Part shown: positions 60,729 through 62,769 of the stretch, piece after piece
How positions within the stretch are numbered: position 1 is the first letter of the stretch
How the letters are laid out: every line of letters starts with the position of its first letter
Assembly: GCF_009914755.1 (NCBI RefSeq)
Contig: NC_060939.1
DNA: 64,000 nt
Reading direction: 5' to 3' (one strand)
From: the human T2T-CHM13v2.0 reference genome, Homo sapiens
Made by a program: the position numbers and the translations under genes
Notes under the pieces: model-generated
Told to the model about the DNA's origin: nothing
The model's input: only the letters and a program-made list of their open reading frames with translations
The model's database searches: none

Positions 60729-60960
60729 ACCCTACATCTGGCTATAAATTTTACATATTTGACAAATTCTGAGACCCTGTCTCAGAAAATAAAATAAAAT
60801 ATTCATAGTCTTAATAATGGAAAACAAAAACATTTATTGAATGTCAAAATTATCTCCCTAACACCCCGAATCAGTTGGGATCTACATAAAAAACAATTAT
60901 GCTCTGCTTTCCAATCATGATTTTTAAAAGAACAAAGGACAAAAAAATTCATCAAATGTG

Positions 60961-61265
60961 GGCCGGGCATGGTGGCTCACACCTGTAAACCCCACACTTT
61001 GGGAGGCCGAGGTGGGCAGATCATGAGGTCAGGAGTTCAAGACCAGCCTGACCAAGATGGTGAAACTCCATCTTTATTAAAAATACAACAATTAGCTGGG
61101 CATGGTGGAGGGTGCCTGTAATCCTAGCTACTCAGGAGGCTGAGGCAGAGAACTGCTTGAACCGGGGAGGCAGTGGTTGCAGTGAGCCAAAATCATGCCG
61201 CTACACTCCAGCCTGAGCGACAGAACAAGACTCCCTCTCGAGAGGAAAAAACACACAAAAAATAT
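60961..61265 (+). mobile_element. Alu with TSD attcatcaaatgt
   Basis: Alu consensus; TSD. Confidence 0.9.
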
Positions 61266-61474
61266 TCATCAAATGTAATGAATAAAACATATACTTTGGA
61301 TTTTGCCATGTACTTAGCTTTTCTTAGAGCACCTTTTAGAACTATTGTTTCACAGAAAACACTTTGGGAAAAATTTTAATTTATAAACAAATACTGGAGG
61401 GCTAGGAAGAAGAGGTTAAAACTTTTTAAAATATACAGAATGAATTACTGATACATAAAAAAAAAAAAAAAAAA

Positions 61475-62330
61475 GGTTGCTGATTCCTGTCTTGGAAGAC
61501 ACTGTCATATGGACACTCTTAGCCTCAGCATCCAGAGGTCCAGAAAGGGAAAATTTCAAGTCAGAGAGAATTCTATATATACCACTTACTTGGAACATTC
61601 AGCCCTCAAAATCCCAACATCATGACCTCAGTTTCAACACAATTGTCCTTAGTCCTTATGTCACTGCTTTTGGTGCTGCCTGCTGTCAAGGCAGTGGAAG
61701 CCAGTGATGCAACTGCTCTCTCGTTAAAAGGTGTGGTTCTCAGTATTACAGGTGTTTGTACTTGCTTGCGGGCATACGCACGAAAGATAAAAATGAACAG
61801 ATGTGACTTTGAAGGGCCTAATGAATGAAACCTCACCCTGAAAACCTTTGTGCTACTGAAACTAAATGTAAGCTTTGGTGTCTGAAAGTTTCCAAGAATT
61901 ACTAAGTAGGAGAGTTTTACTTTCTGAGTTGATTCCATGAAATGGGAACAAATTGGTACATAAATGGATTTTGCCCAGAATCCTAGGAAATCGCCACTGT
62001 TCAGTCGTAATCACTGCCTCCTAAATCACTGAGTCTGTTCTCTGTATTTTTATTAGACTTTTGTCATCTCCCAAATTCAGATATCCAATAGTCAGCCAAA
62101 AAGGGAAACTTTTATCTCTGGAAAGAAAAAAAATCACTTAGAAAAATGTATTCAGTGTATCTAATACTGAAATGGAGAAAAGACTTAATGTTAAAGAAAA
62201 AAAAAACACTATAGACATTGACATGGAAAAGAGATTTAATGTTAAAAAAACTTTATATTAACTGAGTAACACCTCCTGATGAGAAGTGCTATATTAAATA
62301 TAAACCCATTATGTTGTTTAAAAAAAAAAA
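61475..62330 (+). pseudogene. Processed retrocopy of SMIM30 (LINC00998/MAVI1 microprotein) with open ORF 61622..61828
   Basis: ORF MTSVSTQLSLVLMSLLLVLPAVKAVEASDATALSLKGVVLSITGVCTCLRAYARK... matches the SMIM30 protein as I recall it. The parent C-terminus survives out of frame (AAT GAA CAG ATG TGA at 61792-61806). ATTAAA at 62293-62298 and A11 at 62320-62330; A-run on the 5' flank; the insert splits an old L1M 3' fragment. Confidence 0.88.
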
Positions 62331-62769
62331 CATGAAAATCAAAAGCACTAAACAGAGTGAAAGAAGCCAGACACAGAAGAACCCGACTACGTGATTCCAT
62401 GTATGGAGTTCTAGAACAGGCGCAATTTGTCAAATGCTGGAGAAACATCAGGCCAACTATTGCCTCTGGGAAGAAGGGGCAGGACACCAGAGAACTTTCT
62501 GAGCAAGAGTCATGATAAAGATGTGGGTTACATGGGTTACATTTGTCAAAACTTGTGAAATGGTAAACTCAAAATAGATACATTTCATTATATATAAATT
62601 TTACCTGAAAGTCAAAAACAAAGTTGAACTAGAATCAATTACATACATGAGTGTCTAAGGAGCTAGGTGAGACAAACGGTGGATGGACAGACAGCAGGAT
62701 GTGGAGCCAAATACGGTGGCAGAACATGGAGGTGGGTCTGCAGCCACTCACTGTACACGTCTGTCAGTT

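What the first reader, a model, noticed from the sequence alone, without database searches (positions are those of the whole stretch)
61475..62330. SMIM30 (MAVI1/LINC00998) microprotein retrocopy with a still-open ORF, nested antisense in HERC2 intron 3
Seen: an 856-bp intronless block with about 150 nt of 5' UTR, an ATG in good context (aacATCATGA, A at -3), a 68-codon ORF (61622-61828), an AT-rich 3' UTR, ATTAAA and an A11 tail. It splits an old L1M sequence (gaattactgatacata | catgaaaatcaaaagc...gaaagaagccagacac), as expected for L1-mediated retrotransposition. Known: SMIM30 is a 59-aa hydrophobic membrane microprotein, reported to inhibit MAVS signalling and to anchor SRC/YES1. Against the parent as I recall it, the first 20 residues are identical and about 45 of the first 54 match. 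There is one Lys insertion, and a late frameshift swaps RNGQM* for IKMNRCDFEGPNE*. Inference: a candidate unannotated paralogous micropeptide, or a natural antisense RNA to HERC2 pre-mRNA. The parent was long labelled a lncRNA, so such copies are easily missed. Caveat: polar or charged substitutions in the second hydrophobic segment (S, K, T, R) look like neutral decay.
Basis: partly seen in the sequence, partly recalled or inferred. Interest (0 to 1): 0.85.

Follow-up and report, generated by a model that had tools for sequence, protein, structure and literature searches.

The report
Old SMIM30 processed pseudogene in HERC2
This is an old, intronless, reverse-transcribed copy of the small membrane-protein gene SMIM30 lying backwards in a HERC2 intron; its short reading frame is still open, but most likely by chance, so it is an ordinary dead gene copy.

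Summary
Window 61475-62330 (+) is a processed retrocopy of SMIM30 (parent on chr7). The 460-nt parental intron is missing exactly at the exon junction. The copy ends at the parental poly(A) site with ATTAAA and an A11 tail. It carries a 68-codon ORF and lies antisense in HERC2 intron 3.

The interpretation as a candidate new micropeptide or antisense RNA is not supported.
- The copy is old: about 15% diverged from the parent, own branch about 0.095 substitutions per site.
- It is one of nine independent SMIM30 retrocopy lineages in this genome.
- Amino-acid-changing sites changed about as fast as the copy's UTRs.
- Indels are as dense in the ORF as elsewhere, and one is a frameshift that replaces the C-terminus.
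- The transmembrane helix that the parent uses to bind MAVS has six substitutions plus an inserted lysine.
- The four near-identical chr15 duplicates differ at three ORF sites, all nonsynonymous.
- Simulation gives a 13-22% chance of such an ORF surviving neutrally; 2 of 9 lineages kept one, against 2.7-3.5 expected.
- RefSeq lists no + strand transcript, promoter or CAGE feature here.

Expression data and primate orthologues could not be examined.

The parts
61453..61474 (.). 5' junction. The end of the old repeat (ACAT) is followed by an A18 run (61457-61474). 61453-61468 is the candidate 5' copy of the target-site duplication.
   Evidence: Older partial duplicates read GATACGTG(A/T)AAA... 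here. 12 of 16 positions match the 3' candidate. The stretch is A-rich, so the evidence is weak.
61475..61621 (+). Part derived from the 5' UTR of SMIM30 mRNA. The exon-exon junction is at 61592|61593.
   Evidence: Window 61503-61591 aligns to chr7:114437246-114437159 and 61586-61952 to chr7:114436703-114436342. The parental intron has GTAAGT...TTCTAG borders.
61509..61625 (+). Copy-specific upstream ATG with a 38-codon uORF. Its stop overlaps the main ATG.
   Evidence: One search lists the ORF. The parent reads ACG at this place. All HERC2-derived duplicates carry the ATG.
61622..61828 (+). 68-codon ORF derived from the SMIM30 CDS. It has a Lys insertion at 61727-61729 and a +2 nt frameshift near 61787-61788. 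The parental stop (61804-61806) is now out of frame; the new stop is at 61826-61828.
   Evidence: Pfam PF15873 (DUF4730) scores 69.1 bits against a cut-off of 27; the parent scores 97.9.
61829..62319 (+). Part derived from the 3' UTR. An internal deletion of 160-178 nt of parental sequence lies near 61953-61970. ATTAAA is at 62293-62298.
   Evidence: The chr20 and chrX retrocopies and the parent all keep the deleted stretch.
62320..62330 (+). A11 remnant of the poly(A) tail, a few bases from RefSeq's 3' end of SMIM30.
   Evidence: with the gene end taken.
62330..62345 (.). Candidate 3' copy of the target-site duplication (ACATGAAAATCAAAAG).
   Evidence: 12 of 16 positions match the 5' candidate.
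62331..62640 (.). 3' flank: an old interspersed repeat into which the retrocopy was inserted.
   Evidence: 26 dispersed matches at 73-86% identity, besides the 4 chr15 paralogues. The family name was not tested.

Best explanation
The block is a processed pseudogene. A spliced, polyadenylated SMIM30 mRNA was reverse-transcribed, presumably by the L1 machinery, into an A-rich site inside an old interspersed repeat in HERC2 intron 3, in the antisense orientation. This happened tens of millions of years ago.

The copy brought no promoter and has since decayed at the neutral rate. Its ORF is short (59 codons originally). It has escaped stop codons and early frameshifts by chance, and it now encodes a damaged protein with an intact signal peptide, a transmembrane helix interrupted by Lys and Arg, and a frameshifted tail.

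The copy was later carried along by the HERC2 segmental duplications of 15q11-q13, 16p and chr5. Most likely it has no function of its own.

Shown here: identity, intron loss, poly(A) end, age rank, duplication history, substitution and indel pattern. Inferred: the L1-mediated mechanism, the lack of expression, and the absolute age.
For: Origin:
- The intron is lost exactly at the GT..AG borders.
- ATTAAA and A11 sit at the parental 3' end.
- There is a candidate target-site duplication, and the flank is an old dispersed repeat.

Age:
- K2P distance to the parent is 0.169 over 797 aligned pairs.
- The tree is a comb. The HERC2 lineage branches third-oldest of nine, with stem 0.092 plus tip 0.004.
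- The copy is present in all HERC2-derived duplicates, including eight partial copies at 87.6-90.2% identity.

Neutral decay:
- There are 9 nonsynonymous differences where 10.7-11.2 are expected if neutral on the copy branch (P(X<=9) = 0.32-0.38).
- The CDS holds 2 indel events against 2.45 expected, and one is a frameshift.
- Among the four close chr15 copies, 11 columns vary. Three are in the ORF (2.77 expected) and all three are nonsynonymous, including V to A in HERC2 itself.
- Simulated neutral retention of the ORF is 0.13-0.22. The expectation is 2.7-3.5 such ORFs among nine lineages, and 2 are seen.
- The clean first 60 nt of the CDS (2 differences) is matched by cleaner 60-nt windows in the 3' UTR (1 difference).

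Damage to the protein:
- Six of the nine substitutions, and the Lys insertion, fall in residues 30-52. Published work (passages read) maps the transmembrane domain there and finds it needed for MAVS binding (PMC10854431).
- Kyte-Doolittle hydropathy of that segment falls from 2.58 to 1.62.
- A copy-specific uORF overlaps the start codon.

Annotation and databases:
- No RefSeq exon or regulatory feature lies on any of the four copies.
- All 8 protein hits from named public sources are SMIM30-like proteins of other species, and none has this copy's derived residues.
Against: - Changes private to the HERC2 lineage in codons 1-54 are 5 nonsynonymous to 4 synonymous. Seven other retrocopy lineages pooled give 36:6 (Fisher p = 0.061). 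With chr12_48M included the pool is 53:17 (p = 0.24).
- Pairwise Nei-Gojobori dN/dS to the parent is 0.22. This is lower than the roughly 0.5 expected for a neutral copy of a constrained parent. However, dS (0.37) is about twice the UTR divergence, which points to hypermutable third positions and changes on the parent lineage.
- The ATG, the start context, the signal-peptide part and the Pfam match (69 bits) are all intact.
- All four chr15 copies keep the 68-codon ORF.
- No expression, ribosome-profiling or mass-spectrometry data and no primate orthologues could be examined. Supplements of papers were closed. 21 protein candidates of untold source were left out.
Confidence: 0.9

Rival explanations
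1. A translated paralogous micropeptide. An unannotated + strand transcript from HERC2 intron 3, or from its three duplicates, is translated into a 68-aa protein. It keeps the SMIM30 signal peptide and acts in the ER membrane or lumen, either like SMIM30/MAVI1 or as a variant of it.
For: - The ATG has A at -3, and the ORF is open in all four chr15 copies.
- Residues 1-20 are identical to the parent.
- The Pfam DUF4730 match is above the cut-off.
- There is a mild excess of synonymous private changes (5:4 against 36:6, p = 0.061), and pairwise dN/dS is 0.22.
Against: - No promoter was carried over, and no RefSeq + strand transcript, CAGE or promoter feature exists here.
- A copy-specific uORF overlaps the ATG.
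- The transmembrane helix, which the published work finds required for MAVS binding, has 6 substitutions, an inserted Lys and a new Arg.
- The C-terminal linker is frameshifted. Its deletion made the parent protein nearly undetectable.
- The nonsynonymous rate is about the UTR rate.
- All 3 recent ORF changes are nonsynonymous.
- The open ORF is expected by chance at 13-22%.
Confidence: 0.04
2. A functional non-coding RNA. The + strand of the retrocopy is transcribed and acts either as a natural antisense RNA to HERC2 pre-mRNA or as a decoy for regulators of SMIM30 mRNA.
For: Only position and orientation support it: the copy is antisense inside a HERC2 intron, and it shares 82-86% identity with SMIM30 mRNA in segments.
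Against: - No annotated + strand transcript or regulatory element lies over any of the four copies.
- The divergence from the parent and the 13 indel events fit unconstrained sequence.
- Any intronic insert is antisense to its host about half of the time.
Confidence: 0.03
3. A retrogene that was once functional and died later. The copy was expressed and under purifying selection for a time after insertion, then lost constraint. The frameshift, the Lys insertion and the recent nonsynonymous changes would date from the later phase.
For: - The share of synonymous changes is higher than in other retrocopies (p = 0.061).
- The first 60 nt of the CDS have only 2 differences, against 20 in nt 61-162.
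Against: - Equally clean 60-nt windows occur in the 3' UTR, and 230 of 5000 shuffles reach the cleanest window seen.
- Against mutation-model expectations the N:S ratio gives P = 0.24-0.40 for 5 of 9, and P = 0.06-0.16 for a by-eye count of 8 of 16.
- The nonsynonymous count is not below the neutral expectation.
- The test has little power with 54 codons.
Confidence: 0.05

Closest known systems
SMIM30 (MAVI1, formerly LINC00998), chr7, the parent gene
   Same: - The mRNA layout is the same: 5' UTR, CDS, 3' UTR and poly(A) signal.
- Residues 1-20 are identical and 45 of the first 54 match.
- Both match Pfam DUF4730.
   Different: - The copy has no intron and no parental promoter.
- It is about 15% diverged.
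- It has a Lys insertion, six substitutions in the transmembrane domain, a frameshifted C-terminus, a 160-178 nt deletion in the 3' UTR and a new uORF.
Other human SMIM30 retrocopies. RefSeq calls several of them 'small integral membrane protein 30-like': LOC112268264 (chr20), LOC124906018 (chr2), LOC112268094 (chr12), LOC112268306 (chrX) and LOC124901354 (chr6). Unannotated copies lie on chr5, chr17 and chr12:48.2 Mb.
   Same: They are the same kind of element from the same parent. They start at nearly the same 5' position (query 16-31) and end at the same poly(A) site. The chrX copy also keeps an open ORF, all 59 codons.
   Different: - This copy has no gene model in the RefSeq annotation supplied.
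- It is among the three oldest lineages.
- It is the only one multiplied by segmental duplication: 4 full and 8 partial copies.
HERC2 duplicons of the 15q11-q13 breakpoint regions (HERC2P2, HERC2P3 and others)
   Same: The retrocopy is a passenger in these known duplications. The copies in HERC2P2 and HERC2P3 are 99-100% identical to it. A passage read in PMC10648317 records a chromosome 15 duplication containing HERC2.
   Different: The duplicons are a property of the HERC2 locus, not of the retrocopy. They say nothing for or against a function.

Membership tests
Processed pseudogene (L1-mediated retrocopy) | The parental intron(s) are absent exactly at the splice junction. | tested here: met
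   A 460-nt GT..AG intron of the chr7 parent is missing at window 61592|61593.
Processed pseudogene (L1-mediated retrocopy) | A poly(A) tract at the parental polyadenylation site. | tested here: met
   ATTAAA at 62293-62298 and A11 at 62320-62330 lie within a few bases of RefSeq's SMIM30 3' end.
Processed pseudogene (L1-mediated retrocopy) | Flanking target-site duplication. | tested here: inconclusive
   The 16-nt candidates at 61453-61468 and 62330-62345 match at 12 of 16 positions. Older partial duplicates keep ACGTGAAA at the 5' side. The stretch is A-rich, and no empty site was found in this genome.
Processed pseudogene (L1-mediated retrocopy) | A location different from the parent, without the parental promoter. 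| tested here: met
   The copy is on chr15 and the parent on chr7. The sequence 5' of 61475 is an A-run and an old repeat, not chr7 upstream sequence.
Processed pseudogene (L1-mediated retrocopy) | Evolution without coding constraint. | tested here: met
   dN is 0.081 against a branch of 0.095. Indel density in the ORF is as expected, with a frameshift. All 3 recent ORF changes are nonsynonymous. One test against this reading is borderline: private N:S 5:4 against 36:6, p = 0.061.
SMIM30 / DUF4730 protein family (PF15873), as a functional member | Sequence match to the family profile. | tested here: met
   69.1 bits against a cut-off of 27, covering profile positions 1-55.
SMIM30 / DUF4730 protein family (PF15873), as a functional member | A cleavable signal peptide (1-24) plus a transmembrane helix (30-52) and a cytosolic C-terminal linker, as described for MAVI1. 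| tested here: inconclusive
   The N-terminal hydrophobic part is kept (KD 2.05 against 2.17). The second segment drops from 2.58 to 1.62, with Lys inside and Arg near its end. The linker is replaced by the frameshift. Domain limits come from passages of PMC10854431. No dedicated signal-peptide or transmembrane predictor was run.
SMIM30 / DUF4730 protein family (PF15873), as a functional member | Transcribed and translated. | not testable with these tools
   No expression data were available. RefSeq shows no + strand transcript or regulatory feature.
SMIM30 / DUF4730 protein family (PF15873), as a functional member | Purifying selection on the ORF. | tested here: not met
   Searches show no significant depletion of nonsynonymous changes or indels. 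Power is low, and primate orthologues were not available.
Natural antisense transcript of HERC2 | A + strand RNA overlapping HERC2 pre-mRNA. | not testable with these tools
   None is annotated. No RNA data were available.

The most novel reading that the evidence does not exclude
The 68-codon ORF is carried by four near-identical chr15 copies. In some tissue it could be translated from an unannotated antisense transcript. The product would keep the SMIM30 signal peptide and have a weakened membrane anchor, so it might be a secreted or lumenal derivative of an ER microprotein. The mild excess of synonymous changes would then be the trace of that selection.
Probability: 0.03. Interest if true: 0.45.

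Novelty: new member of a known kind. Interest (0 to 1): 0.1.

Why it matters
It matters little for biology. It adds one more SMIM30 processed pseudogene, and this one has no gene model in the RefSeq annotation supplied.

Practical value:
- SMIM30 has at least nine retrocopy lineages in this genome. Two of them keep open ORFs, here and on chrX. Ribo-seq, peptide and siRNA or primer work on SMIM30/MAVI1 should allow for them.
- This copy exists in four near-identical places on chr15, so any reads from it multi-map.
- It is a worked example that an open 60-70 codon frame in an old retrocopy is weak evidence of coding. The neutral survival probability here is 13-22%.
- The retrocopy is an old marker inside HERC2 intron 3. 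It predates both waves of HERC2 duplication seen in this genome.

Tried and rejected
Tried, and what came of it:
- I asked whether the identical first 20 residues signal constraint. The first 60 nt of the CDS have 2 differences, but 60-nt windows in the 3' UTR have only 1. 230 of 5000 shuffles give a window as clean as the cleanest seen. I rejected this as evidence of coding constraint.
- I asked whether the missing 160-178 nt of 3' UTR could reflect an alternative splice form. The parent and the chr20 and chrX retrocopies keep the stretch. The alignment shows only that the stretch is absent from this copy. I judged the edges by eye and saw no splice-like borders; no call tested them. I read it as a deletion.
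- I looked for annotated orthologous proteins in other primates. All 8 hits are other SMIM30-like proteins, and none has the Lys insertion or this copy's substitutions. 21 candidates of untold source were left out before scoring, and the tool sees only proteins of 0.55-1.75 times the query length. The novel 13-residue tail is too short to be searched apart.
- A protein-level search of the genome for further copies found the same set, 12 places.
- Literature. 'SMIM30' with 'pseudogene' gave 47 papers, of which I saw the listing of 20 and none is titled on SMIM30 pseudogenes. 'SMIM30' with 'retrocop' gave 0. 'SMIM30' with 'HERC2' gave 0. 'SMIM30-like', 'SMIM30P' and four LOC names gave 0. Supplementary tables of ORF catalogues were closed and may list this ORF.
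- The paper PMC311424 on HERC2 paralogues is not held.
- The rates behind the age figures (1.0-2.2e-9 per site per year) are recalled, not computed.
Full report
WHAT IS THERE.
After an A18 run (61457-61474) comes 147 nt that match the SMIM30 5' UTR. An ATG follows in the context aacATCATGA, then a 68-codon ORF (61622-61828). An AT-rich 3' part, ATTAAA (62293-62298) and A11 (62320-62330) complete the block.

A DNA search of the window's own genome finds the parent gene SMIM30 at chr7:114435806-114437643, minus strand. The block aligns to the parent in three pieces. Window 61503-61591 matches chr7:114437246-114437159. Window 61586-61952 matches chr7:114436703-114436342. Window 61971-62315 matches chr7:114436163-114435815. 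Identities are 82-87%.

The parental sequence between the first two pieces is a 460-nt intron with GTAAGT...TTCTAG borders. In the window the two exons abut exactly at 61592|61593. The copy ends within a few bases of RefSeq's 3' end of SMIM30. It lies in the 6377-bp intron 3 of HERC2 NM_004667.6, on the opposite strand.

THE PROTEIN COMPARISON.
I used the parent as read from the fetched chr7 locus, 59 aa. Residues 1-20 are identical and 45 of the first 54 match. The substitutions, in parental numbering, are V21A, E23K, G28S, I31T, L34S, I44V, A46T, G49R and V50A. An AAA codon (Lys) is inserted after residue 35. A +2 nt insertion after Lys54 shifts the frame. The tail RNGQM is replaced by 13 other residues, and the parental stop (61804-61806) is read through to 61826-61828. 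The ORF still matches Pfam PF15873 (DUF4730) at 69.1 bits, against a cut-off of 27 and a parental score of 97.9.

HOW IT AROSE.
- Intron loss, a poly(A) tail at the parental poly(A) site and a new chromosomal location are the marks of a processed retrocopy.
- The 3' flank (62331-62640) gave 30 matches. Four are chr15 paralogues and 26 are dispersed at 73-86% identity, so it is an old interspersed repeat. I did not test the family name L1M.
- A candidate 16-nt target-site duplication (61453-61468 and 62330-62345) matches at 12 of 16 positions. Older partial duplicates of the region keep GATACGTG(A/T)AAA at the 5' junction, where the window now has only A's. That fits a 5' copy eroded into a homopolymer. 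The stretch is A-rich, so this is suggestive only.
- A stretch of 160-178 nt of parental 3' UTR is missing near 61953-61970. It is present in the parent and in the chr20 and chrX retrocopies, so it is a deletion on this lineage.

FAMILY AND AGE.
The genome holds nine independent SMIM30 retrocopy lineages: chr17, chr20, chr5, chr6, chr2, chr12 (22.5 Mb), chrX, the HERC2 lineage and chr12 (48.2 Mb). DNA and protein searches agree on the set.

RefSeq names five of them 'small integral membrane protein 30-like'. Four are called pseudogenes and the chr6 one protein-coding. RefSeq has no model for the HERC2-intron copy (and the annotation supplied).

K2P distances to the parent run from 0.031 (chr17) to 0.291 (chr12, 48.2 Mb). 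The HERC2 copy is at 0.169 over 797 aligned pairs. The ML tree is the expected comb. The HERC2 lineage is the third-oldest branch, with stem 0.092 and tip 0.004 substitutions per site. With recalled rates of 1.0-2.2e-9 per site per year this gives 43-95 Myr. That is a rough figure.

The copy predates the HERC2 duplications.
- Three further full copies lie in HERC2P2, in HERC2P3 and at chr15:26390717-26391572. They are 99-100% identical over the block and about 97% over 2.9 kb.
- Eight partial copies carry only window 60772-61657, at 87.6-90.2% identity, on chr5, chr15 and chr16.
- HERC2 duplications at the 15q11-q13 breakpoint regions are known (passage read in PMC10648317).

IS THE OPEN FRAME MORE THAN CHANCE?
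Read from the parental ATG, the nine lineages fare as follows.
- The HERC2 lineage keeps an ATG and the frame through codon 54. All four chr15 copies have 68 open codons.
- chrX keeps an ATG and all 59 codons.
- chr20 and chr17 are open but frameshifted inside the protein.
- chr5 has lost the ATG.
- chr2, chr6, chr12 (22.5 Mb) and chr12 (48.2 Mb) stop early.

I simulated neutral decay of the parental CDS. The simulation used each lineage's ML branch length, a transition and CpG bias, and 0.06-0.11 indels per substitution with the observed indel lengths. For the HERC2 branch the probability is 0.13-0.22 of keeping the ATG, no stop, and the frame through codon 54. Over the nine lineages 2.7-3.5 such copies are expected, and 2 are seen. 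Retention is unremarkable.

TESTS OF CONSTRAINT.
- (a) Nonsynonymous rate. There are 9 nonsynonymous differences over 117.7 sites (dN 0.081). Neutral evolution on a branch of 0.095 predicts 10.7-11.2 (P(X<=9) = 0.32-0.38).
- (b) Indels. There are 13 events between copy and parent. Two fall in the CDS where 2.45 are expected, and one of them is a frameshift.
- (c) Recent changes. The four close chr15 copies differ at 11 columns of 823. Three are in the 207-nt ORF, against 2.77 expected. All three change the protein: V to A in HERC2 itself, C to R in HERC2P3, and R to Q at 26.39 Mb. The probability of 3 of 3 is 0.27-0.37 if neutral and 0.02-0.04 at omega 0.2.
- (d) The identical N-terminus. The first 60 nt of the CDS have 2 differences, but 3' UTR windows have 1.

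Results pointing the other way.
- Changes private to the HERC2 lineage in codons 1-54 are 5 N to 4 S. Seven other lineages pooled give 36:6 (Fisher p = 0.061). With the poorly aligned chr12 (48.2 Mb) copy included the pool is 53:17 (p = 0.24).
- Against mutation-model shares of 0.65-0.72, the probability of at most 5 N among 9 is 0.24-0.40.
- Pairwise dN/dS is 0.22. However, dS (0.37) is twice the UTR divergence. Several synonymous differences are shared with other old retrocopies, which suggests changes on the parental lineage or at CpG sites.
- I take these as a weak hint that does not reach significance. The test has low power at 54 codons.

WHAT THE PRODUCT WOULD BE.
Passages read in PMC10854431 say the following about SMIM30/MAVI1.
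- It is 59 aa, with a cleaved signal peptide (1-24) and a transmembrane domain (30-52).
- It sits in the ER membrane with its C-terminus in the cytosol.
- The transmembrane domain is needed for binding MAVS.
- A construct lacking the C-terminal linker was nearly undetectable.
- Deleting the 5' UTR lowered translation.

The SRC/YES1 report appears in that paper's reference list. I did not read it.

In the copy the signal-peptide core is intact. Six of the nine substitutions and the inserted Lys lie in residues 30-52. The best 19-residue hydropathy window of that segment falls from 2.58 to 1.62, while the N-terminal window changes only from 2.17 to 2.05. The C-terminal linker is replaced by the frameshift. 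A copy-specific ATG at 61509 opens a 38-codon uORF whose stop overlaps the main ATG. The parent reads ACG there.

EXPRESSION.
None of the four chr15 copies is overlapped by a RefSeq exon on either strand. No enhancer, promoter or CAGE feature is listed within 2 kb of any of them. I had no RNA, ribosome or peptide data.

VERDICT.
The element is an old SMIM30 processed pseudogene that rides in HERC2 intron 3 and its duplicons. Its open frame is best explained by the shortness of the ORF and by chance, and the encoded protein is damaged in the parts shown to matter for the parent. It is a new member of a known kind, in the sense that RefSeq has no model for it, and it is of low interest. The reading that it is a translated micropeptide is not excluded, but I put it at a few per cent.

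Noticed in passing
G000:C23:69234509-69234685 (-), locus L010, inside TEX11: The chrX SMIM30 retrocopy (RefSeq pseudogene LOC112268306) keeps the ATG and all 59 codons in frame with no indel, at K2P 0.171 from the parent. Pfam DUF4730 scores 70.5 bits. Its private changes are 6 N to 2 S, which looks neutral.
   Followed up: partly
G000:C6:88277674-88282347 (-), locus L008: RefSeq calls LOC124901354 (SMIM30-like) protein-coding. Read from the parental ATG, however, this retrocopy stops after 2 codons and has four 1-nt gaps against the parental CDS. The model must use another start.
   Followed up: no
window 60772-61657; loci L014-L021: An 886-bp module is present eight times at 87.6-90.2% identity on chr5, chr15 and chr16, always with the same two ends. 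It consists of an Alu, the old repeat, the A-run and the first 183 nt of the retrocopy, and it ends 36 nt into the ORF. The copies lie within HERC2P4/P5/P8, LOC102723753, LOC102723564, PDCD6IPP2 and LOC283683; the chr5 copy has no gene model.
   Followed up: partly
G000:C15:26390717-26391572 (-), locus L004: A fourth full copy of the retrocopy, with about 97% identical flanks over 2.9 kb, lies about 350 kb from HERC2. RefSeq has no gene or pseudogene model there.
   Followed up: no
G000:C5:125591014-125592023; C17:7929011-7929973; C12:48227367-48227744: Three more SMIM30 retrocopies have no SMIM30-like model in RefSeq. The chr5 copy lies inside lncRNA LOC101927421 and has lost its ATG. The chr17 copy is the youngest (K2P 0.031) and has a 46-nt deletion in the CDS.
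   Followed up: partly
window 61457-61474: The A-run at the 5' junction is A18 in HERC2. It reads AGAAAAACAAAAAAA in the three close duplicates, so it is an unstable homopolymer.
   Followed up: no
proteins P0001-P0005 (macaques, green monkey): These predicted 'SMIM30-like' proteins of 68-78 aa join varied N-terminal extensions to a SMIM30 copy whose Met1 is Ile. This suggests gene models built on a monkey retrocopy with upstream exons. None shares the derived residues of the HERC2-intron copy.
   Followed up: no
window 62172-62261: The 3' UTR part holds an internal imperfect direct repeat (...aatgttaaag / ...aatgttaaaa). The parent has it too, so it predates the retrocopy.
   Followed up: no
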